A stretch of DNA of 64,000 nucleotides from Escherichia phage vB_EcoA_4HA11. The position numbers and the translations under genes were made by a program. Positions 13,179-62,680 of the stretch are shown here, piece by piece. The notes under the pieces are model-generated. The model saw nothing but the letters and a program-made list of their open reading frames with translations, ran no database searches and had not been told where the DNA came from. The first letter of the stretch is position 1, and the number at the start of each line of letters is the position of its first letter. The stretch lies in sequence record MN445184, one strand, 5' to 3'.

Positions 13179-13371
13179 GACACACCTCGGGATATAGGGT
13201 TATCCCTTAGTTAGTTCATCCACCTATCTTTTCTTCTCGATTCTTGTCGTTCCCTCCGCTTATGTTCAAACCGGAATAACAGATAGAAGAAATTACCACC
13301 CAATACGAAGATGACTCCGATTATCACCAGGATACCCTTTACAATTTCCCAAATTAATTCATTATCCAAAG

Positions 13372-13656
13372 TTACACCTCATCTTTATTAATTCCATCGA
13401 TTAAGACACGAGCGGAATCAAAATCTTCCCCGCTAGTATTCAGCATCTTAGTCAAATCATCAATTTCGTGAACTGGGCCAAGATCAGATTCTCGCAAAAT
13501 GAAACCCAGAATCCCATTCAACGCGGAAGTGATATCTCCCTTGTCGATATCATTTTTGATCACCATAAGTTTTACAACAGAATTAGTCTGACGGGAATCC
13601 AGATTTAATTTGTTTGACACCATGATGTTCAATTTGTTACGGATTATTCTTTGCAT
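13372..13656 (-). CDS. hypothetical protein
   Basis: 94-aa ORF. Confidence 0.4.
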   Translation of the reverse strand: MQRIIRNKLNIMVSNKLNLDSRQTNSVVKLMVIKNDIDKGDITSALNGILGFILRESDLGPVHEIDDLTKMLNTSGEDFDSARVLIDGINKDEV

Positions 13657-14423: not shown

Positions 14424-14553
14424 GTTATAATCAACCTATTCAATTTCTGACCAACCCCACGTTAGCCAGTTATTGAATAATACGGCAAATGTTTATTCAA
14501 GTAAAGCCCTTGAAAGTAAAAATCCCCAATAATATTGGGGATTTCATGGATTA

Positions 14554-21189: not shown

Positions 21190-21285
21190 GGTATAGTCTT
21201 CCTGTTTCAGTTCAAAGTGAGCGCCCTTATCGGGGCGCGTCGTTAAAGTGAGGTCAATATACGCTGAAAAGATTTATTGAAAAGT

Positions 21286-21693
21286 TTAAACGGGAATCAT
21301 GTTTACTCGAATACTTCTGAACCGTTTCCCGTCATAACTGGTGTAACCAACAACCGTAACTGATCTTGTTCCCTTTGGATAACCCTTTGGAGTACTCACA
21401 ACGCGCACAGGGCGCTTGCTTTCTTTATCGTATTTCGAAATCAATTTCAAAAGATGTTTATCGATCTGGCTTAAACTATCACCATACACGGTATATTGAT
21501 ATTGCTCGCAATTACCCAACAAAATGATAAATTTATAAATTTTGTCGACCAAAGATCGACATTTTGGATCATCATAATGATGCCGACAGACTTGACATTC
21601 ATATTTCCCAGTATTCATGTTGAACAATTTTGTCGCCCGACTTGAACACGCTGGGCATACTTTCCATGAACGATGATGTTTTACGGGTTTCAT
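21286..21693 (-). CDS. zinc-ribbon hypothetical protein
   Basis: CPACS...CQVCRHH cysteine pairs. Confidence 0.4.
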   Translation of the reverse strand: MKPVKHHRSWKVCPACSSRATKLFNMNTGKYECQVCRHHYDDPKCRSLVDKIYKFIILLGNCEQYQYTVYGDSLSQIDKHLLKLISKYDKESKRPVRVVSTPKGYPKGTRSVTVVGYTSYDGKRFRSIRVNMIPV

Positions 21694-22916
21694 TTTTTCA
21701 TCTTCTCTAACAGATTAATAGAACGAACGGGAGTCTTCTGTAATGGCTGATTAACTTCACCACCATTATACCCCACCTTTCCTCGAGGTTTCTCCCCGCG
21801 CATCACCGCCTCAACGCAGCGGGTATATTTCTGAAGTTCACAGAACATGTTCTCCAACTGCATAACATTCATGCAACGGTCTTCCGGTTCTTCTGCCGAC
21901 CAAAATTCATTACGTTTATACCCGTACTGAGCGAACAATTGATCTTGATGATCACGAACCCAGAATATGCATTCTTCATGCGTCATGCCGTCCTTGTCCA
22001 AAAATAACAGATCGATACCAGCACGGCAACCTGGACCAGCGATAGTGAAGTGGTTTTCACTGAATGGATATTCATCGATGTATGTAAAATCAACCCAAAT
22101 CTGGTATGCCAAGAATGGTCCAAGCCCCTCAATGTCGTCATACATCGCCTGGTAAACAGAGTCGGGACGGCTAAATTCCCTGAGGCGATCAAAGTAATGA
22201 GGGTGTTTGTTGACGAATGCCTTCAAAGAGCGGATGACTCGCATCGGCATGTATGGTTCCCAGCCTTCTATTTTGTATTCACCAGGATTATCTTCGGCCA
22301 GCTTCTTGGCAACCTTGTAATCCATTTCATCTATAACACCGCCAACCCGATGGACTTTTACCTTCATGCCGCCAAAGCGTTGCTCCTTGTGGTTGACAAC
22401 TAGTTCAGGGAAAGCCAGGCATTGTTTCAGACCGCCTGTATTAAACGCATTGGTGAAAACTTTGCCACCTTTAGATTCGAATTCCTGAAGAACATCTCGA
22501 CACCATTCAAGATTTATGTTTCCGAATTCTTCGATCGTCCATGGACCACCCAAAGCCTGTATAGGTTCCCACATGTTGTACATTCGGAACAATACACAGT
22601 TGAACATTTTGTCAGATAGCGTGAGATCCTGATCGAGGATGATATTATTGATCAAATTTCGAGACTGCCTATCGTGCTCTCTCCGCACGTTACAAAACTT
22701 GACTTGGCGTAATACCGGATTATCCGTCCATGGCGCTGGAAGGCATTGCACGTCCTTCTTGACATGTATCGCATAACGATCCCTCATCCATTCATATGCC
22801 AGCTGGCGGTGGAATGAACTTAACATAGGATGGGCTGATTTGATTTTGGTTTCACGGACACCGCAATATGGGATGTCATGTGGTTTATCTTTCATGGTAT
22901 CCTCTCTAGAATACAA
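21690..22916 (-). CDS. hypothetical protein (408 aa), possibly enzymatic
   Basis: Long ORF, 4-bp overlap with downstream gene. Confidence 0.5.
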   Translation of the reverse strand: MYSREDTMKDKPHDIPYCGVRETKIKSAHPMLSSFHRQLAYEWMRDRYAIHVKKDVQCLPAPWTDNPVLRQVKFCNVRREHDRQSRNLINNIILDQDLTLSDKMFNCVLFRMYNMWEPIQALGGPWTIEEFGNINLEWCRDVLQEFESKGGKVFTNAFNTGGLKQCLAFPELVVNHKEQRFGGMKVKVHRVGGVIDEMDYKVAKKLAEDNPGEYKIEGWEPYMPMRVIRSLKAFVNKHPHYFDRLREFSRPDSVYQAMYDDIEGLGPFLAYQIWVDFTYIDEYPFSENHFTIAGPGCRAGIDLLFLDKDGMTHEECIFWVRDHQDQLFAQYGYKRNEFWSAEEPEDRCMNVMQLENMFCELQKYTRCVEAVMRGEKPRGKVGYNGGEVNQPLQKTPVRSINLLEKMKK

Positions 22917-31891: not shown

Positions 31892-31922
31892 AAAATACCC
31901 CCAATTTTGGGGGTATTTATAA

Positions 31923-34117: not shown

Positions 34118-34125
34118 AGTGGACC

Positions 34126-34566
34126 TCAGTTAATACGGAACAAATGTGGATAGCCACCAGGATGACCCTGGCCAGTAACGAACACGTCGAATTTTGAACC
34201 CTTGATCAGGCCAGGCAGATTGCCGGAGTCCAGCAATTCACGGATCTGCTCCATCGCCAACATCCAGGTTTTGGCAGGTTCGGCTTCTGCTTCTCCTCGA
34301 TTGAGTACGAGTTCACCTTCGGAATAGAACTTCCCGCTGTCCTTCATATAGTACAACGTGATATGAATGTACTGAGGGGACGGAACTAAACGCCAACCGT
34401 CGTCGATCAGATCTTGGCGATCATTGTCCAGTGACTGATAATCAATATCACCAGATGGCAAACCATAGCTGCGCATGTAGCGGAACTTCTCAACACGATC
34501 TTTCACGTCGGAGATGAAGAACTCTTTCGTGGCAGGGCTGATGAATATGTATTTTCCTTTTGACAT
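34126..34566 (-). CDS. hypothetical protein
   Basis: 146-aa ORF. Confidence 0.4.
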   Translation of the reverse strand: MSKGKYIFISPATKEFFISDVKDRVEKFRYMRSYGLPSGDIDYQSLDNDRQDLIDDGWRLVPSPQYIHITLYYMKDSGKFYSEGELVLNRGEAEAEPAKTWMLAMEQIRELLDSGNLPGLIKGSKFDVFVTGQGHPGGYPHLFRIN

Positions 34567-34626
34567 GATGTAGTTCTCTCAGTGATAGACCATATCATAA
34601 TAGCACTGAGGACTGATAAAGAAAAA

Positions 34627-35274
34627 CTACATGAAATCTTTTACCCATTCAGGGTCTTCCATAGGAACCCAATTTTCGTATTTGAACATTTTGTACATGT
34701 TATAGAACACTCGAATATTATTCCCGTCGTTCATCCGGTTACAAAATCGTTCATGCCCCCAACCTTCATTCTTCCATAATTGATAGAATTGGTCAGCCAT
34801 AGCCCAAACGTGTTGGCATTTAGTTGCCCTTGGACGCTTCCATATCCTGATTTCATTCTGCCATTTGATCTGGGCTTGCCGTGATGTTTCCGAAAATCCA
34901 ATTGGTTTGTTCTTTCCTCTTGTTACGTTAGACAAATGCGCCTTTGCTTCTTCGCTGAGTGGCCCAGTCCTTCCAAAATAAACGAGGGAACCATCTTTCT
35001 TAACATGGAAACGATTTAAACAAAGAGGATTGGTGTGAACGGATTCGATCAATTGCGCTTCAACTTGGAGGGCTTCCTCTCCATCCCGACATAGCATTAT
35101 CACTTCATGGGTGAAGTAATCTGGTCCATGTTGTGATATAAGGGATTGGACAACTTTCGAGGACGTAAAATATTTTACCCAAAGTTCTTTGGGGTGACAG
35201 TTCTTTGCGTGACGACATCCATAATAGATGTGTCCATCTTTTGATTCTATTTTGTAAACGTATGGTTGGTTCAT
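34627..35274 (-). mobile_element. GIY-YIG-type homing-endonuclease-like gene (Seg-like)
   Basis: N-terminus PYVYKIESKDGHIYYG matches the GIY...YIG spacing; freestanding gene between terminator and downstream genes. Confidence 0.55.
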
Positions 35275-35311
35275 AATTCCCCCTTTCAGGACATTATAAC
35301 CCCATACTTCT

Positions 35312-35340
35312 GAAATAAAAACCCCGCCGAAGCGGGGTTT
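35312..35340 (-). terminator. rho-independent terminator after the major capsid gene
   Basis: CCCCGC-UUCG-GCGGGG (35322..35337) followed by UUUUUAUUU on minus strand. Confidence 0.65.
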
Positions 35341-47887: not shown

Positions 47888-47895
47888 TATTTAGT
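47888..47895 (-). promoter_or_regulatory. late-promoter-like motif ACTAAATA
   Basis: 25 nt upstream of ATG 47863. Confidence 0.35.
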
Positions 47896-47921
47896 TGAAT
47901 TTGTTTTTAAGGTGAATCAAT

Positions 47922-48632
47922 ATGATCGTCCTGACAGAAGGAATTGCTTCTAAAAGAATCAAATCATATGCTTCTTCTAGAGGTGGAATATTTCACGGAT
48001 TTGTCGGTGGTAAATTTGTCACCAACCAAACTAAGTGTATTTTGTCTTGCGAATTTGGTCATGAATGGAACTCAGCAACTTATGCGAATTTGATAAATAA
48101 AGGAAGTTGGTGTCCTTCGTGTCGTGGAAACAAGAAGATCTCAAATGAAGAAGCTAAAATCAGGATATCGGAGTACGCCGTAAGCAACGGTGGTAAATTC
48201 ATAAATTTCATTGGCGGGAAGTACAAAGACAACGTGACAATTTGTGTCATGGAATGTTCTGAAACACACAGGTGGGAATCCAGGTACGGTAATTTAGTCA
48301 ACAGCCGAAGTTGGTGTCCGTATTGCGCAGAATCGGGTTACAATTATTCTAAGGAAGGTTTCTTATATATTCTAGTCAACGACGAAGGTTGTATGAAAGT
48401 GGGAATAACCAACTCACCTAAGAAACGCATAAATTGTTTAAGAAGCAGCACCCCGTTTGACTTCAACGTTCTAGAAATATTCAATTCAACCGACGGATTA
48501 TTTGTTTCCAGGTTGGAAAGAATTGCCCATAGAATGTGTAAGAGCGCGGGATATAAGGATTTTGACGGTGCTACCGAATGGTTTGTATATGACGGGTCAG
48601 TCGTAGATTTTATCAGAAATATTTTGAAGTAG
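47922..48632 (+). mobile_element. T5orf172/GIY-YIG-superfamily endonuclease-like gene with two N-terminal zinc-finger repeats
   Basis: Two repeats of C..C..H.W...WCP.C; C-terminal GFLYILVNDEGCMKVGIT...ATEWF; plus strand inside minus-strand structural block; AAGGTG SD. Confidence 0.55.
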
Positions 48633-48659
48633 CCATGACTTTACCCTCAATTTTGAAGG

Positions 48660-48667
48660 TATTTAGT
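48660..48667 (-). promoter_or_regulatory. extra copy of ACTAAATA motif on the 3' side of the plus-strand insertion
   Basis: Same 8-mer; no minus-strand start codon within 50 nt. Confidence 0.2.
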
Positions 48668-55142: not shown

Positions 55143-55174
55143 TTTGATGCTCCATAGAGTGCCATTTATAGAGA

Positions 55175-55182
55175 TATTTAGT
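55175..55182 (-). promoter_or_regulatory. late-promoter-like motif ACTAAATA
   Basis: About 33 nt upstream of ATG 55142, just downstream of a terminator. Confidence 0.35.
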
Positions 55183-57548: not shown

Positions 57549-57574
57549 ACATACCTCTTTGTTTTTCTAGTAAG

Positions 57575-57590
57575 CCCCTCCTAAGAGGGG
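57575..57590. promoter_or_regulatory. hairpin CCCCTC-CTAA-GAGGGG in the 51-nt gap between two tailspike genes
   Basis: T-run follows on plus strand only. Confidence 0.35.
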
Positions 57591-57599
57591 TGTATTTTT

Positions 57600-60380
57600 T
57601 TAAATAGAAGAATCCAATATACGGTAACTAATTAACTTAGTAGGGTCTACCGGATTAATCAGATTGTAGTATCGTGAGGCTACATAATCGTTCTCGGAAG
57701 AGAACATACCAACATACACTTTAGCGCCCACCCCAGAACAAGCATCCCCACCAGCATTGCTATCTGAGAAGAACGTTAATGGGGAAGTTAATCCGAATAT
57801 AGAATTAAATGGTACGGCTAAATAAGCGCCTCGGAATGACCGTCTGATTCTCTTACCCGTCTGAATATTAAGAATACTCCACCAGAAATATCCTGGTTTA
57901 GCACCAATAGCTATATGATATGGTACACCACTTTGTAGTTTAAGGTCGTTAGGTAAATCCCCAGATAAAATTTGGGTTGTACCATCGCCCCCCAATAGCA
58001 AAGCAATTGTTTGTTTTCCAGAAGCGTCTATAACTAATTGAAGATGAAGACTGTTGGATGTATCACTAAACCCTGAACCAATGGCCATGAAGTTAAATAC
58101 TTCAGCTCCAGATATGGTGGGTACTACAACAGCAGCCATGGTAATACCTTCTGGACCTGCTGTTCTTGAATACAGTAATTTATCTTTGTTGGCTTGTGAT
58201 AGTCTCAGACCATTTACTTGCCCTACAGAAGATGGGACACTTACATAAACAGGTGTAGTGCTAACACCATCAAATGTAGGGGTCTCGTTCATGGTTTGCA
58301 AACCAGTCTTGGAATAATTAACCAATCCGTTAATGCTCAGGTCGGAATTGGTGGGGTTGATAATATTGTTATCACCAATAAAGTTAATGCCCATATAACC
58401 AGTCTCAACCACACCATTAATGGTGACACTACAATCATTAGACAGGAACTGAAAATTGCCTGCACTAGAGTTAGCACCTGAACCACTATTCGCGGCATAA
58501 TTGAGTCCTACGAATCCGTTGATAACTGCATCACTTTTGTTAAATACGATGTTGTAGAAAGTGTTGTTAGCATTGATGCCGTTACGATTGGTGTTCAATC
58601 CGTTCATGGAAATTGAATATGAATCGCTAATCTCAATGCCATTCCCGCCACAATCTTGTACCTCAATACCATTAATAACCATATTCTGGCTGTTATTAAT
58701 AGTAATGCCTGGAAACTGTCCTACTGTACCATAAGGTTGCCAGTTAGCCCAAATGAATTTACCGCCAATAATACGACCATTACCACAACCATCAAGAACT
58801 AGACATTGTTTACCGCAGGTATTAACCTGGATATTTGTCCAAGTCCAATCAGTAGTAGCACAACGGACACCCACCTGATTGATGTGGTTGACTAAAAGAG
58901 AATCTGTAGTAACACTAAAGTTACCACTATCAATATTTAACCCATATTCATCAAAACCTGCTATATGGACCTTAGAAATACACAAGTCCCGTCTTGGGTC
59001 TGCGGTAGTGTGGAACGGATAATCGGCTGAGAGACCTGAAGGAGTTTCTACATAGATACCTGTTGTGCCCGCAGTAAATGACGTGCCTTGTTGTGCACCT
59101 GTGCCATATACCCCAAAGGCGTCTAATACAATAAGGGAGCATGTATCTTTTATGGTAATACAATTCCCAGTAGCAGAAGGCAACTGATGCAACCTTGAGT
59201 AATGTAATCCAGACCCATAAATAGACGACGTATTATATTTTAACTGGATATTGCTAACGTAATGTACACCAGTTAATTGTGTGGCCTTACCACTATCCAC
59301 ACAAGATTGTACTGGAATAGTATCATCATTAGAACCACCCAAAGCACCAAACATGAATGGGTTAACTCTATCAGCATTAACACGTAACCATGCTGCGCCG
59401 CCAACAGTTTTGATCACAGTACCGTTATTATCAGTCTTTCCTGTACCATCAATTAACGCACGGAATACCCCTCCACCAAGAAGAGTACCCGCAGTGTGTT
59501 GCTTAAGAATAATGCGTTGTCCATCCATAGTGGGTTCAGTATTCCTGAGATCAGCAACAGAATGGCATTCTCCAATATACTTGGCACCATCATTGCGCCC
59601 CAGAGTGTTTATCACATTAATAAATGAATCTTCTAAAGGCAACAAATCAACCTGCACATCACCTGGGTTGTAATTCAATTTCCCAGCAGATACAGAAGAA
59701 ATGACAGAACCATCAGGAATGGTTGGTAAACCATAACTGGTTTGCGTCGCTATATCATAAACAACTTTCTTCCCATCCAACAAAGATATGGTGTCCGTAC
59801 TAACGATGACTTCAGAGTCTTTTACATTAGCAGAACGGGCGATTTCTTGAATACTTCGGTCAAACGCCGGACTGATATTCGGTTGTTTAACAGACATTTC
59901 AGCGACTACCCAAACGCCTGCAGTCAGTGCAGTTTGCAAAGACACTTTCCCTGTCGTGCTGTTATAGGAATATTCAATTTCGGGTGTTTTGTACTCGCCA
60001 CCGATATAAAGAGATTGGACACCATAGGATGTGAAATCAGGAGTGAACTCGGTTTCACCCCCTACGGCTTGAAATTTGTATATGCGGATACCTTTGGCTG
60101 TATCTTCTGGCGAAAGAATTTTATCGAATAAGCAATACACAACATCGCCTTTGGACAATGCGCGCCCGAGATTCAACGTATTTCCTTCGATTTCAAAGTT
60201 GTCTAAGGGAACTTGCATACCACCGTTGATTGTGACTACGCCAGTGACAGGATAGAACGGCAAGGAAAGGAAAGTTTCTCCACCAACATTTGATTTATAC
60301 GTGAAAGGAATCTGGTGGGGAGCTGTGATTACGCCGCCGAATAATTCTTCTACATTTCTGGTCATTTGAAAATACCCCAT
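57600..60380 (-). CDS. tailspike protein (926 aa)
   Basis: Long ORF with repetitive beta-helix-like Gly/Asn-rich C-terminal half; alternative in-frame ATG at 60365. Confidence 0.7.
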   Translation of the reverse strand: MGYFQMTRNVEELFGGVITAPHQIPFTYKSNVGGETFLSLPFYPVTGVVTINGGMQVPLDNFEIEGNTLNLGRALSKGDVVYCLFDKILSPEDTAKGIRIYKFQAVGGETEFTPDFTSYGVQSLYIGGEYKTPEIEYSYNSTTGKVSLQTALTAGVWVVAEMSVKQPNISPAFDRSIQEIARSANVKDSEVIVSTDTISLLDGKKVVYDIATQTSYGLPTIPDGSVISSVSAGKLNYNPGDVQVDLLPLEDSFINVINTLGRNDGAKYIGECHSVADLRNTEPTMDGQRIILKQHTAGTLLGGGVFRALIDGTGKTDNNGTVIKTVGGAAWLRVNADRVNPFMFGALGGSNDDTIPVQSCVDSGKATQLTGVHYVSNIQLKYNTSSIYGSGLHYSRLHQLPSATGNCITIKDTCSLIVLDAFGVYGTGAQQGTSFTAGTTGIYVETPSGLSADYPFHTTADPRRDLCISKVHIAGFDEYGLNIDSGNFSVTTDSLLVNHINQVGVRCATTDWTWTNIQVNTCGKQCLVLDGCGNGRIIGGKFIWANWQPYGTVGQFPGITINNSQNMVINGIEVQDCGGNGIEISDSYSISMNGLNTNRNGINANNTFYNIVFNKSDAVINGFVGLNYAANSGSGANSSAGNFQFLSNDCSVTINGVVETGYMGINFIGDNNIINPTNSDLSINGLVNYSKTGLQTMNETPTFDGVSTTPVYVSVPSSVGQVNGLRLSQANKDKLLYSRTAGPEGITMAAVVVPTISGAEVFNFMAIGSGFSDTSNSLHLQLVIDASGKQTIALLLGGDGTTQILSGDLPNDLKLQSGVPYHIAIGAKPGYFWWSILNIQTGKRIRRSFRGAYLAVPFNSIFGLTSPLTFFSDSNAGGDACSGVGAKVYVGMFSSENDYVASRYYNLINPVDPTKLISYRILDSSI

Positions 60381-60403
60381 AAGGATTTGCCAATATGGGG
60401 TAT
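60372..60403 (-). promoter_or_regulatory. 10-bp inverted repeat ATACCCCATA...TATGGGGTAT overlapping the ACTAAATA motif and first ATG
   Basis: Arms 60372..60381 and 60394..60403. Confidence 0.4.
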
Positions 60404-60408
60404 TTAGT
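60401..60408 (-). promoter_or_regulatory. late-promoter-like motif ACTAAATA
   Basis: Upstream of the 926-aa tailspike gene. Confidence 0.35.
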
Positions 60409-60439
60409 CTGAACTAATAAAATTTATGAACAAAGGTAT

Positions 60440-60470
60440 AATAAGAACCCCGCCAAAGCGGGGTTTTTGC
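60440..60470. terminator. terminator hairpin CCCCGC-loop-GCGGGG
   Basis: Stem 60448..60463, T-run on plus side, U-rich on minus side. Confidence 0.55.
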
Positions 60471-60480
60471 TCAAGATAAA

Positions 60481-62577
60481 TTAAAGTGTGTATGTTACAT
60501 AACTTCCATCTGGTTTTTTAGCAAGCAACCTCAATGCTCCGTCACTTCCGAAGAAGAATCCTATAGATGAATTATGTTCCAGAGCGCTCTCTGGTAATTG
60601 TAAAGGGGCAGCAGGTATACTCATATGCTTAAAGCCTAAGCGGTTAAGCTGAAACTCACCTACACGTACACCCTCCTGAATTGCCGAAAGCTTGACAATA
60701 CTTGCCTCACCCCCTGGTGTAGCAACCTGGCAATCTGCCGTCATAAGCAAAGATGGGTTTGTAGTACCACCCATAGCAGGTTGCATTGCAAGTGTCATTT
60801 GGTTGGCACTATGCTGAACATTGATATTACCTCCCTGAATATCGCTTATATAGGTACATAGTAATTTCTTAGTACCGGAACCAGCACAGGAAACATTACT
60901 TACTTCTGAAGACGGAGCGTATATAGCGTAACCTTGTGTAGTATATGCATGGATGTTAATACCACGAAGTCTACTACCTCCCTCACAGGTAAGCTGATTT
61001 AGGTTAGTTAAATCCTTATTCGCACCTACTACAGTAATGTTAGTAATATCATTGTTAGTACCCCTATCGAAGACGCCTTCCTTATGGGCCTCATAAGTAA
61101 CAACATTATCAATAATATTTTTCTGACCATCCCACCAAGCACCAATCCCCATACAATCACGAGTAATAATATTACGGATGATATGTTGAGTAGGTAGGTG
61201 GAACCATGGATACTCTGCGAGTGAGTAGTCATCCACACGTTCAGTTGGCGACCCTGTGTCAGCATTAACATCAATACCATCATAGTAACACTGGATTGTA
61301 GTTATATTGTCGAACACTAAACGGTAGTTCCTGGCTGAACGACCTCCAATTTCGTTCTGATAGGTTTTAATACCTGATTCTCCAACACGGTATGAGATTA
61401 AATCCCTTACTCCACCATCATGGTCTGTACCACCATCATTGCGAATGAACAGTACAGCGGAACCAGAGCCATATTTTATCTCACCCCCAACAACCCAGTT
61501 GCCAGTACCCCATGCAGTTGTATGATGGTTCTCAAATGTAATGCCCGATTCCAAAGCAATAAAATTGCGTGGATTCTTAACAAGAATCCTATTACATAAA
61601 GTAAATAGATAACCACCAAATGTAGCTTCTGGGTTCTCTACGATGATATTATCGCCGCTCATTATTCGCAAAGTAGCACCAGCAACCTGATTTTTTACAT
61701 TATCAGGAAGGTCGTCCCAAATATCTAAATCGTTAATATTTGGCTTATATCCAACATCCAAACGCTGCTGAACAGATGCCAGAACTTGTGTTGGGTCTGT
61801 AACCCAATTACCGTTTGCATCGAATCGGTAAACAGTATACGGCGTAGTTTTAGTATGCATGTGCGGTTTCTTAATTACTGAACCCGCACCCAAACCATTC
61901 CAAACCAACATACCATCGCCAATGAATTTTCCTTTGCATTCAATGATTAAAACTTTACCGCTAAAATCTACATTCTCATCTGCAGTAAAAGTGTAGTCAA
62001 CATCAATAAGCAATCCATCTACGGCTGCTGTCGCTGCATCCTGTAATGTAGAATAATCAGATAACTTTACTGAATATTTGAATTTCTTATTAGCTTCCTG
62101 CCTAAATGCAGCATCACCAACACTAACCCAAGCACCTAAACCAACGCCACCAGTTGATGCTGGAGTTGAACCAGCAGGAACAACTTTAGGTAATGCACCA
62201 TCCCATCGATATTTTTCATCATCGTGAACAAGAAGTTCATTTTTCACATTAATAGTATGGCCGAAATTAAAAGAACCAGGTAAAGTCACATATTCTTCGC
62301 GGCTTACTGCTAATTCCCCGAGATCAACAGAGCCAGAAGAATGAGTAAGGATGGCTTGTTCGTTCAGACTTATCGCAGTCGTTCCTGAAACAATACCTGA
62401 AGGAAGAGAATAAGCCCGTTGGGTAGACTCATCATAAATTACTTTAAATCCGCTGAGATCAATACCGACAGTGAAATAAATGACTTCGTCTTCTTTGACA
62501 CCGAAATTTCGAGCGATAGATTGTTTGTTAACTTCTATGGAAGTGGAGCCGCGTGGTTGATTGAATTGAGAAATCAT
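60481..62577 (-). CDS. tailspike protein (698 aa)
   Basis: N-terminal module shared with the 770-aa tailspike; remainder divergent. Confidence 0.7.
   Translation of the reverse strand: [698 protein letters not shown]
62098..62577 (-). repeat. N-terminal tailspike module, paralogous copy B
   Basis: Similar to 57069..57548. Confidence 0.7.
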
Positions 62578-62581
62578 GATA

Positions 62582-62613
62582 ATACCCCATAAAGGATGAC
62601 CAATATGGGGTAT
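62582..62613 (-). promoter_or_regulatory. 10-bp inverted repeat ATACCCCATA...TATGGGGTAT overlapping ACTAAATA motif
   Basis: Arms 62582..62591 and 62604..62613; GGGG of the 3' arm is the only SD-like element before ATG 62577. Confidence 0.4.
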
Positions 62614-62618
62614 TTAGT
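62611..62618 (-). promoter_or_regulatory. late-promoter-like motif ACTAAATA
   Basis: Upstream of the 698-aa tailspike gene. Confidence 0.35.
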
Positions 62619-62651
62619 CTGAATTAACAAAATTTTATAAACATGGATATA

Positions 62652-62680
62652 ATAAGAACCCCGCCGAAGCGGGGTTTTTA
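62652..62680. terminator. terminator hairpin CCCCGC-UUCG-GCGGGG
   Basis: Stem 62659..62674; sequence nearly identical to the one at 55205..55233. Confidence 0.6.

What the first reader, a model, noticed from the sequence alone, without database searches (positions are those of the whole stretch)
60372..60403. Ten-bp inverted repeat overlapping promoter motif, SD-like GGGG and first ATG of two tailspike genes
Upstream of the 926-aa and 698-aa tailspike genes the same element ATACCCCATA-(12 nt)-TATGGGGTAT is found (second copy 62582..62613). Its distal arm overlaps the ACTAAATA motif by 3 nt. Its proximal arm contains the only SD-like purine run (GGGG) and, for the 926-aa gene, the first in-frame ATG. 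It could be an operator or an RNA hairpin controlling tailspike translation or stoichiometry.
Basis: seen in the sequence. Interest (0 to 1): 0.5.

Follow-up and report, generated by a model that had tools for sequence, protein, structure and literature searches.

The report
Late-promoter hairpin masking tailspike ribosome sites
The repeat is real: it most likely forms an RNA hairpin joining the phage's late-promoter box to the ribosome-binding site of two tailspike genes, the trick phage T4 uses for its lysozyme gene, so that probably only transcripts started at each gene's own late promoter are translated.

Summary
ATACCCCATA-N12-TATGGGGTAT occurs exactly at both stated places, against 0 expected by chance. 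The perfect repeat is in fact 12 bp (TSP2) and 11 bp (TSP3).

The window is a Kuttervirus (Ackermannviridae, SFP10-like) and the genes lie on the minus strand. Each repeat sits in an 84%-identical cassette: intrinsic terminator, ACTAAATA box, inverted repeat, ATG.

- **5' arm:** it begins inside the TAAATA box, which resembles the T4 late promoter.
- **3' arm:** it carries the GGGG Shine-Dalgarno sequence.
- **Start codon:** the ATG inside the repeat is not the real TSP2 start.

The design is not specific to tailspikes. About 12 of ~32 TAAATA sites in SFP10 and in Dickeya phage LIMEstone1 have it. Box-side and SD-side segments fit their own partner far better than partners from other sites (p<5e-5). 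Stems change less than loops between the two genera (8% vs 29%). T4 genes e and 49 show the same layout.

By T4 gp55 geometry, late transcripts should start about 6 nt after the box and so lack the 5' arm. Only read-through RNA would then have its SD masked. That step is inferred, not shown.

Verdict: a new member, and an expanded use, of a known T4-type translational gate. An operator is unlikely. Interest is modest.

The parts
60446..60465 (-). Intrinsic terminator after TSP3 (AACCCCGCTTTGGCGGGGTT + CTTATTATAC). First element of the TSP2 cassette.
   Evidence: Terminator scan; sequence.
60401..60408 (-). ACTAAATA box. Putative gp55-type late promoter -10 element (TAAATA = 60401-60406).
   Evidence: 8 copies, all on the coding strand, against 1.8 expected. 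The orthologous box is annotated 'putative late promoter' in the LIMEstone1 record. gp55, gp33 and gp45 homologues are present in SFP10.
60394..60405 (-). 5' (distal) arm AAATACCCCATA of the TSP2 hairpin. It overlaps the promoter box by 5 nt.
   Evidence: 12-bp perfect inverted repeat (I19). The RNA fold pairs all of it.
60394..60396 (-). Predicted late transcription start. The last A of the box is taken as -6, so +1 is about 60395.
   Evidence: Inferred from the T4 gp55 open-complex numbering, with A at -12, -9 and -8 and a bubble from -12 to +2. Positions 1-4 after the box are C/T-rich and positions 6-8 are A-rich across 26 sites. Not measured.
60382..60393 (-). 12-nt loop (TTGGCAAATCCT). 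It varies between relatives.
60370..60381 (-). 3' (proximal) arm TATGGGGTATTT. It contains the Shine-Dalgarno GGGG (60375-60378) and a non-start ATG (60378-60380).
57600..60365 (-). TSP2 gene, 921 aa. The real start is the ATG at 60363-60365.
   Evidence: S115 annotation. LIMEstone1 has an in-frame stop after the ATG inside the repeat. PHROG tail fibre / tail spike hits.
62657..62676 (-). Intrinsic terminator after TSP4. First element of the TSP3 cassette.
62611..62618 (-). ACTAAATA late-promoter box of TSP3.
62604..62614 (-). 5' arm AATACCCCATA of the TSP3 hairpin. Predicted +1 is about 62605.
62581..62591 (-). 3' arm TATGGGGTATT of the TSP3 hairpin. SD GGGG is at 62585-62588.
60481..62577 (-). 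TSP3 gene, 698 aa. Contains Tail_spike_N and P22 tailspike domains.
31893..31918 (-). Another member of the same class in the window: ATAAATA box, then AAATACCCCCAA-AA-TTGGGGGTATTT, then ATG of a 242-aa ORF.
   Evidence: I18.
55150..55182 (-). Weaker member upstream of VriC: ACTAAATA box, with CTCTATA...TATGGAG pairing that includes one U.G.
   Evidence: -6.9 kcal/mol.

Best explanation
[quoted passage not shown] The 5' arm (AAATACCCCATA) consists of the last bases of the gp55-type -10 box (TAAATA) plus the 5-7 nt between box and start site. The 3' arm (TATGGGGTATTT) is the Shine-Dalgarno sequence plus its flank.

RNA that enters from upstream contains both arms. This is read-through of the imperfect terminator 45 nt upstream, or any earlier long transcript. 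Such RNA folds (-14 to -18 kcal/mol for the isolated stem) and its SD is buried. RNA initiated at the gene's own late promoter starts about 6 nt after the box. It therefore lacks all but 2-3 nt of the 5' arm, leaves the SD free, and is translated.

Each tailspike gene would thus be a self-contained unit (terminator, promoter, gate, CDS), with translation tied to its own late promoter.

Shown here: the structure, its anchoring to box and SD, its selection, its generality in Ackermannviridae, and its identity of layout with T4 genes e and 49.

Inferred: the start site, the existence of read-through RNA, and the translational effect.
For: 1. Exact inverted repeat at both sites, with 0 expected by chance. 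It is 12 and 11 bp perfect.
2. Folding. With the 5' arm included, the MFE is -18.7 and -21.3 kcal/mol (z -3.2 and -3.9) and GGGG is fully paired. Starting from the predicted +1, it is only -3.8 and -5.2 kcal/mol (z>0) and the SD is open.
3. The box behaves as a late promoter. ACTAAATA occurs 8 times on the coding strand against 1.8 expected. SFP10, 97-99% identical to the window, encodes gp55, gp33 and gp45 homologues. The LIMEstone1 record annotates the same boxes as putative late promoters.
4. Generality and specificity. For 26 SFP10 sites, the duplex energy of the box-side segment with its own SD-side segment is -8.4 kcal/mol, against -4.8 with other sites' segments (permutation p<5e-5). 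An ORF-based rerun gave the same result in SFP10 and in LIMEstone1, with 12 of 32 and 12 of 31 sites at or below -9 kcal/mol. In all strong cases the 5' arm starts at position 0-2 of TAAATA, or position 4 in one weaker case. The 3' arm ends just before the ATG or over it.
5. Selection. Across 12 orthologous SFP10/LIMEstone1 leaders, 17 of 215 stem positions changed against 33 of 112 loop positions (Fisher p=1e-6). Two changes are compensatory: CAA/TTG to CAT/ATG, and CTCCA/TGGGG to TCCCA/TGGGA. Several changes convert between Watson-Crick and G.U pairs. The TSP2 arms are identical across Kuttervirus, relatives with 65% protein identity, and LIMEstone1 (43% protein identity), while the loop varies.
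6. Positive control run through the same procedure. T4 gene e reads TAAATAccttcta..ttaggaggtatt-ATG. T4 gene 49 reads TAAATAccctta..taagggtttatt-ATG. The Kuttervirus endolysin uses the same arm sequences as T4 e. The T4 mechanism is documented experimentally (PMC3014915).
7. Start-site geometry. T4 gp55 reads A at -12, -9 and -8, and the bubble runs from -12 to +2 (PMC7892883). In SFP10 the composition switches from pyrimidines to A at positions 5-8 after the box.
Against: - No transcript 5' ends, RNA-seq or translation data were found for any Ackermannviridae in the searchable literature, so the start site is inferred from T4.
- Each tailspike cassette is preceded by an intrinsic terminator, and the upstream genes are themselves late. 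The early-versus-late logic of T4 gene e therefore does not obviously apply here, and read-through may be small.
- Within TSP2 orthologues the arms never vary. Their conservation could come from promoter and SD constraints alone. The covariation evidence comes from other genes and from comparisons between sites.
- Unbiased typing of stem mismatches gives mostly G.U, but also two A.C cases near stem ends.
- The predicted bias towards promoters with a co-directional upstream gene goes the right way but is not significant. Strong hairpins are found at 9 of 19 such sites, against 1 of 5 at divergent promoters (hand count).
Confidence: 0.6

Rival explanations
1. The hairpin is part of the late mRNA itself. 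Transcription would start at or before the 5' arm. The stem would then stabilise the 5' end, or throttle translation of all tailspike mRNA to set stoichiometry.
For: The stem is stable and conserved. TSP2, TSP3 and TSP4 all carry it. No start site has been measured.
Against: The 5' arm includes 4-5 nt of the TAAATA box itself. A gp55-type -10 element lies at -11 to -6 and the bubble runs from -12 to +2, so a start upstream of the arm is geometrically implausible unless a different, unrecognised promoter is used. T4 genes e and 49 have the same layout, and mapped late 5' ends there lie inside the structure.
Confidence: 0.1
2. The hairpin acts on transcription rather than translation. It would be a second, weak terminator or a 3'-end stabiliser for RNA coming from the upstream gene, insulating the cassettes.
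For: The 3' arm is followed by a U-rich stretch (UAUUUUC) because it complements AAATA. The outcome, insulation from upstream transcription, would look the same as in the best explanation.
Against: The terminator scan does not flag it. The loop is 12 nt. With the full stem formed, the tail is UCAAAUG (TSP2) or AUCAUG (TSP3). A canonical terminator already sits 45 nt upstream. In several other members the 3' arm covers the AUG, or has no U-tract after it.
Confidence: 0.08
3. The repeat is a DNA operator. A dimeric phage or host protein would bind the palindrome that overlaps the late promoter and repress or activate tailspike transcription.
For: The half-sites are 10-12 bp and perfect, with centres 22-24 bp apart (about two helical turns), and they overlap the -10 box. 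The arms are invariant across genera in TSP2 orthologues.
Against: The same box-to-SD pairing recurs at about 12 sites per genome with different arm sequences (CCCCATA, CCCCTAG, CCTTCGC, TCCTCAC, CCCATAAC, GATCT) and spacers of 2 to 26 nt. Pairing is kept through compensatory and G.U changes. One arm is always the SD, which a DNA operator has no reason to track.
Confidence: 0.07
4. The pairing has no function. A C-rich stretch preferred after the late-promoter box happens to complement a G-rich SD, and the two tailspike copies are identical simply because the intergenic cassette was duplicated.
For: C is the commonest base at positions 1-4 after TAAATA. The two cassettes are 84% identical over 109 columns, so they are one duplication, not two independent events.
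Against: Own partners pair much better than partners from other sites, which have the same composition (p<5e-5). Pairing extends beyond the C and G runs: ATA/TAT on both sides, CATA/TATG, TAG/CTA, CAA/TTG. Stems are more conserved than loops and tails. Compensatory changes occur.
Confidence: 0.07

Closest known systems
Phage T4 gene e (lysozyme) leader: a late promoter embedded in a hairpin that sequesters the RBS (McPheeters et al. 1986; reviewed in PMC3014915)
   Same: The TAAATA box forms the start of the 5' arm. The 3' arm is the SD followed by TATT, immediately before the ATG. Stability is similar: -13.5 kcal/mol duplex for T4 e against -14 to -16 here. The Kuttervirus endolysin even uses the same arm sequences, AATACCTTC / GGAGGTATT.
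   Different: T4 e lies in an early region, so its gate separates early from late translation. The tailspike genes follow other late genes and a terminator. T4 e has a second late box in the loop and the tailspike cassettes do not. The loop here is longer, at 12 nt.
T4 gene 49 (endonuclease VII), soc, and I-TevI in the td intron; Aeh1 mobE
   Same: The SD and/or AUG is sequestered in long transcripts, with a late promoter within or next to the 5' strand. T4 gene 49 shows the identical box-anchored layout. Ackermannviridae counterparts exist: the RuvC-like resolvase (AAATACCCAT..ATGGGTATTT) and the LIMEstone1 intron endonuclease I-LimII (ATACTCTTT..AAGGAGTAT).
   Different: These are nucleases or accessory genes, not receptor-binding proteins. 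In soc the box lies in the loop rather than in the arm.
T4 late promoters in general (TATAAATA; gp55, gp33, gp45)
   Same: There is a -10-like box only, with no -35 element. The box sits 20-45 nt upstream of late-gene starts. The phage encodes all three factors.
   Different: The commonest box here is (A)CTAAATA, with C where T4 has the flipped A at -12. The segment after the box is C-rich, whereas T4's is AT-rich. Box-anchored hairpins occur at about 38% of sites, against 1-2 of 18-35 sites in 110 kb of T4.

Membership tests
T4-type late-promoter-embedded, RBS-sequestering leader hairpin (genes e, 49, soc, I-TevI) | The 3' strand of the helix covers the Shine-Dalgarno sequence and/or the start codon. 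| tested here: met
   GGGG lies inside the 3' arm and is paired in the MFE and centroid structures.
T4-type late-promoter-embedded, RBS-sequestering leader hairpin (genes e, 49, soc, I-TevI) | A gp55-type late promoter box lies in the DNA that encodes the 5' strand or loop, so late transcripts lack the 5' strand. | tested here: met
   TAAATA overlaps the 5' arm by 4-5 nt. The layout is the same as T4 e and 49 when run through the same script. The position of the start site itself is inferred, not measured.
T4-type late-promoter-embedded, RBS-sequestering leader hairpin (genes e, 49, soc, I-TevI) | The phage has the gp55 / gp33 / gp45 late transcription machinery. | tested here: met
   SFP_0097 is a late sigma factor, SFP_0064 a late promoter accessory protein, and SFP_0126 the sliding clamp, in a genome 97-99% identical to the window. 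These are database annotations and were not re-derived here.
T4-type late-promoter-embedded, RBS-sequestering leader hairpin (genes e, 49, soc, I-TevI) | The helix is maintained by selection (conservation or covariation). | tested here: met
   Own-partner versus other-partner test, p<5e-5. Stem versus loop substitutions, 8% against 29%. Compensatory and G.U changes occur in other members. There is no variation within the TSP2 arms themselves.
T4-type late-promoter-embedded, RBS-sequestering leader hairpin (genes e, 49, soc, I-TevI) | Longer transcripts from upstream promoters actually cross the element. | not testable with these tools
   The upstream gene is co-directional and the terminator has an interrupted U-tract. 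No RNA data were found.
T4-type late-promoter-embedded, RBS-sequestering leader hairpin (genes e, 49, soc, I-TevI) | Translation is blocked on long transcripts and allowed on late-promoter transcripts. | not testable with these tools
   This needs reporter, toeprint or ribosome-profiling experiments.
Intrinsic (rho-independent) terminator | A GC-rich stem, a loop of 3-8 nt, and a U-tract directly after the stem. | tested here: not met
   The scan does not list it, although it finds the true terminators at 60446-60465 and 62657-62676. The loop is 12 nt and the tail is UCAAAUG or AUCAUG.
Palindromic operator for a dimeric DNA-binding protein | All sites share the same half-site sequence and spacing. 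| tested here: not met
   Arms and spacers differ among about 12 sites per genome. A factor specific to the TSP2/TSP3 pair cannot be excluded from sequence alone.
Curated RNA families (Rfam 15) | A match at the gathering score. | tested here: not met
   Only weak, sub-threshold hits driven by the terminators were found.

The most novel reading that the evidence does not exclude
Ackermannviridae may have turned the occasional T4 trick into a genome-wide rule, with about 40% of late promoters built into SD-masking hairpins. In the tailspike cluster, near-identical terminator-promoter-hairpin cassettes would make each tailspike gene an autonomous module that is equally expressed and can be swapped by recombination. 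Read-through RNA would add nothing to downstream genes. The 1:1:1:1 composition of the branched receptor-binding complex would then be fixed at the RNA level, and new tailspike genes could be acquired together with their expression unit.
Probability: 0.3. Interest if true: 0.55.

Novelty: new member of a known kind. Interest (0 to 1): 0.35.

Why it matters
**Unexplained conserved sequence.** It accounts for a strikingly conserved non-coding element upstream of the host-range genes of a phage family that is widely used for biocontrol and engineering. The cassette is found in 276 phage records from Salmonella, Klebsiella, Escherichia, Dickeya and other hosts.

**Late promoter of the family.** It gives the family a concrete late-promoter and leader model: (A/C/T)TAAATA, then 4-5 pyrimidines, then A. 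The CBA120 genome paper (PMC3184105) said the late recognition sequence of ViI-like phages was not yet identified.

**Annotation.** It corrects the TSP2 start used in some RefSeq records.

**Engineering.** People who swap or add tailspike genes should move the whole cassette of terminator, box, hairpin and SD. Placing a tailspike gene behind another promoter with the 5' arm intact may silence it.

**Biology.** It shows that the T4 e/49-type gate is much more widely used outside T4 than the few classic examples suggest.

Tried and rejected
- **Operator reading.** Rejected as the general explanation because arms and spacers vary between sites while pairing is preserved.
- **By-product of a C-rich promoter flank and a G-rich SD.** Rejected by the own-partner versus other-partner permutation test.
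- **Terminator reading.** The scan does not flag the repeat. A similar-looking 12-bp perfect repeat at 14520-14544 proved to be an ordinary terminator after an ORF and is unrelated.
- **Rfam.** No family matched.
- **G.U versus A.C asymmetry as proof of RNA-level pairing.** By eye, all mismatches were U.G. An unbiased search allowing one mismatch of any type gave 4-5 G.U-type and 2 A.C-type mismatches in strong stems, plus T.T and A.A in weak ones. This is suggestive only.
- **Upstream gene orientation.** Strong hairpins were found at 9 of 19 promoters with a co-directional upstream gene and at 1 of 5 divergent promoters. This is the predicted direction but is not significant.
- **Covariation within TSP2 orthologues.** None is available because the arms are invariant.
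- **Literature.** Searches for a mapped late start site or transcriptome in Ackermannviridae, or for any earlier description of this hairpin, found nothing.
- **First alignment of the TSP2 leader with LIMEstone1.** It picked the wrong one of two adjacent TAAATA boxes. This was corrected.
- **T4 prevalence.** It was computed on 110 of 169 kb only.
Full report
**1. The observation**

A search for ATACCCCATA-N12-TATGGGGTAT, allowing up to 3 mismatches, finds exactly two sites: 60372-60403 and 62582-62613. Both are perfect, and 100 shuffles gave none.

Both genes are on the minus strand. Read in that sense, each site has this order:
- an intrinsic terminator;
- about 35 nt of spacer;
- ACTAAATA;
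- the repeat;
- 7-9 nt;
- the ATG.

The perfect repeat extends to 12 bp at the first site (AAATACCCCATA / TATGGGGTATTT, I19) and to 11 bp at the second. It therefore overlaps the box by 4-5 nt rather than 3. The two cassettes are 84% identical over 109 aligned columns, so they represent one duplicated unit.

**2. Where this is**

The region is 100% identical to Salmonella Kuttervirus phages (SFP10, STP-4, S115; family Ackermannviridae). The genes read TSP4 > TSP3 (698 aa) > TSP2 > TSP1 > VriC. TSP3 carries the Tail_spike_N and P22 tailspike domains. TSP2 matches tail fibre and tail spike PHROGs.

The 926-aa ORF begins at an ATG inside the repeat. Three things argue that this ATG is not the start:
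- S115 starts TSP2 at the next ATG, giving 921 aa.
- In Dickeya phage LIMEstone1 the ATG inside the repeat is followed by an in-frame TAA before the conserved M-S/T-R-N start.
- In the TSP3 copy it is out of frame.

The ATG in TATGGGG is there because it pairs with CAT in the 5' arm.

**3. The box**

ACTAAATA occurs 8 times in the window, always on the coding strand, against 1.8 expected. Each copy lies 20-45 nt upstream of a start codon.

It resembles the T4 late promoter TATAAATA. SFP10 encodes homologues of the late sigma factor gp55, the co-activator gp33 and the clamp gp45. The LIMEstone1 GenBank record annotates the same TAAATA boxes, including those before its tailspike genes, as putative late promoters (PMC3296691). 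The CBA120 paper stated that the late recognition sequence of this family had not been identified (PMC3184105).

**4. The repeat belongs to a class**

Listing every TAAATA upstream of an annotated SFP10 start shows the same design at many genes.

| Gene | Pairing |
|---|---|
| TSP4 | AATACCCCTAGATG..CATTTAGGGGTATT |
| Endolysin | AAATACCTTCGCA..TGCGGAGGTATTT |
| RuvC-like resolvase | AAATACCCATAAC..GTTATGGGTATTT (covers an ATG) |
| SFP_0174 | ATACCCCATAC..GTGTGGGGTAT |
| SFP_0191 | AATATCCTCAC..GTGAGGATATT |
| SFP_0133 | AAATACCCCCA..TGGGGGTATTT |

SFP_0170, SFP_0154 and, more weakly, VriC and others also show it. In every strong case the 5' arm begins at position 0-2 of TAAATA (position 4 in one weaker case), and the 3' arm ends just before the ATG or over it.

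I tested whether this is only C-rich sequence meeting G-rich sequence. I compared the duplex energy of each box-side segment with its own SD-side segment and with those of the other sites.
- Own partner -8.4 kcal/mol against -4.8 for other partners; permutation p<5e-5.
- An ORF-based rerun gave the same result in SFP10 (-8.0 vs -4.9) and in LIMEstone1 (-7.9 vs -4.9). In these, 12 of 32 and 12 of 31 sites were at or below -9 kcal/mol.

**5. Conservation**

The TSP2 arms are identical in Kuttervirus, in relatives with 65% protein identity, and in LIMEstone1 (43% protein identity), while the loop changes. The promoter-hairpin-start segment is found in 276 phage records across eight host genera.

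Over 12 orthologous SFP10/LIMEstone1 leaders:
- stem positions changed at 17 of 215;
- loop positions at 33 of 112 (Fisher p=1e-6);
- the tail between stem and ATG at 16 of 92 (p=0.025).

Two orthologue pairs show compensatory double changes: CAA/TTG to CAT/ATG, and CTCCA/TGGGG to TCCCA/TGGGA. Others move between Watson-Crick and G.U pairs.

A caveat applies. Stem positions are also promoter-proximal or SD positions, so part of their conservation has other causes. G.U pairs dominate the internal mismatches, but two A.C cases occur near stem ends. The argument for RNA-level pairing on the sense strand is therefore suggestive, not proven.

**6. The known precedent, checked with the same script**

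T4 gene e reads TAAATAccttctaTAAATActtaggaggtatt-ATG. T4 gene 49 reads TAAATAcccttatctatttaaggtaagggtttatt-ATG. In both, the 5' arm starts in the box and the 3' arm is the SD plus TATT.

In T4, longer early transcripts form the helix and lysozyme synthesis is reduced about 100-fold. Transcripts from the late promoters lack the 5' strand and are translated. Genes soc, 49 and I-TevI behave likewise (PMC3014915).

The Kuttervirus endolysin uses the same arm sequences as T4 e. The RuvC-like resolvase parallels gene 49. The LIMEstone1 intron endonuclease I-LimII (ATACTCTTT..AAGGAGTAT) parallels I-TevI.

**7. Where late transcription should start**

T4 late promoters are an 8-bp box about one helical turn upstream of the start (PMC2988020). 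In the gp55 open complex the flipped adenines are at -12, -9 and -8, and the bubble spans -12 to +2 (PMC7892883). TATAAATA is therefore at -13 to -6, and +1 is the sixth base after the box.

Applied here, +1 falls at about 60395 and about 62605. That is inside the last three bases of the 5' arm. In line with this, positions 1-4 after the box are pyrimidine-rich and positions 6-8 are A-rich across 26 SFP10 sites.

RNA that includes the 5' arm folds to -18.7 and -21.3 kcal/mol (z -3.2 and -3.9) with GGGG paired. RNA starting at the predicted +1 folds to only -3.8 and -5.2 kcal/mol, no better than shuffles.

This step is an inference from T4. No Ackermannviridae start-site or transcriptome data were found.

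**8. Mechanism proposed**

The hairpin masks the SD on any RNA that enters from upstream. The gene's own late-promoter RNA escapes because it begins inside the 5' arm.

For genes embedded among early genes (endolysin, resolvase and others), this gives late-only translation, as in T4.

For the tailspike cluster the upstream genes are also late, and a terminator with an interrupted U-tract precedes each cassette. The likely effect there is insulation. Read-through RNA would not add to translation of downstream tailspike genes, so each gene's output follows its own near-identical promoter and leader. This last point, and any link to the equimolar branched tailspike complex, is speculation.

**9. 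Rivals**

- **Hairpin inside the late mRNA.** This conflicts with the box being part of the stem.
- **Terminator.** The scan does not support this role.
- **Common operator.** This conflicts with variable arms and spacers.
- **Pure by-product of base composition.** reject this.
- **A protein specific to the TSP2/TSP3 pair.** This cannot be excluded from sequence alone.

**10. Comparison and novelty**

The element meets every sequence-level criterion of the T4 e/49 class. The functional criteria (read-through RNA, a translational block) could not be tested.

What is new is its presence on the tailspike (host-range) genes and its frequency. About 38% of TAAATA sites in two Ackermannviridae subfamilies have it, against 1-2 of 18-35 sites in 110 kb of T4. 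There is also a C-rich rather than AT-rich segment after the box.

The same layout appears in unrelated IMG/VR contigs, before a head-tail adaptor gene and before a RusA-like resolvase gene.

I found no paper describing it in Ackermannviridae. I rate it a new member, with expanded use, of a known kind. Interest is 0.35.

Noticed in passing
window 60363-60380 (minus strand): RefSeq SFP10 (SFP_0161) and several other records start TSP2 at the ATG inside the repeat, giving 926 aa. The S115 annotation, the in-frame TAA in LIMEstone1 and the SD spacing all favour the ATG at 60365, giving 921 aa. This looks like an annotation error that has propagated between records.
   Followed up: yes
window 47896-48615 (plus-strand ORF 47922-48632): The window has a 720-bp insertion relative to SFP10 between the two neck genes. 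It carries a 236-aa plus-strand ORF with CapR, MUG113 and T5orf172 (GIY-YIG-type) domains, behind its own TAAATA box. It leaves a 7-codon remnant start (ATGGCTACTTCAAAATATTTCTGA), still preceded by its late-promoter hairpin near 48630-48667. The neck gene now uses a second box at 47888-47895. LIMEstone1 has the same arrangement. This looks like a mobile nuclease gene that duplicated the target gene's start.
   Followed up: partly
window 62624-62653 (plus strand); weaker counterpart near 60414-60441: A near-consensus sigma-70 promoter (TTAACA-18-TATAAT, 11 of 12 matches) lies between the terminator and the late box. It points antisense into the 3' end of TSP4. Its TATAAT is the complement of the terminator's U-tract region. 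Function is unknown and it may be fortuitous.
   Followed up: no
window 57549-57599 (TSP2-TSP1 junction): TSP1 has no TAAATA box or masking hairpin. The 51-nt spacer has a CCCCTC-TTAG-GAGGGG hairpin that scores as a terminator only on the plus strand, followed by AAAGAGGT and the ATG. TSP1 is therefore probably co-transcribed with TSP2. In S115, TSP1 is frameshifted.
   Followed up: partly
L030, L070, L077, L092 (IMG/VR marine contigs); L121: The same box-anchored hairpin (TATAAATACCCCTAG-loop-CTAGGGGTATTTTTTATG) precedes a head-tail adaptor (gp13-like, phrog_211) gene in several metagenomic viral contigs. The loops vary and the stems are constant. A similar hairpin precedes a RusA-like resolvase gene in L121. 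The design is spread beyond Ackermannviridae and T4.
   Followed up: partly
SFP10 record 56755 (endolysin) and 45643 (RuvC-like resolvase); LIMEstone1 139325 (I-LimII): The functional counterparts of the classic T4 examples (lysozyme e, endonuclease VII, intron endonuclease I-TevI) carry the same kind of gate in Ackermannviridae. The endolysin arms are the same as those of T4 gene e, although the enzymes and genome contexts differ.
   Followed up: partly
window 13220-13653, 21282-21767, 34119-35312: There are three further segments where the window does not align with SFP10 by BLAST (indels or replaced sequence). They were not examined.
   Followed up: no
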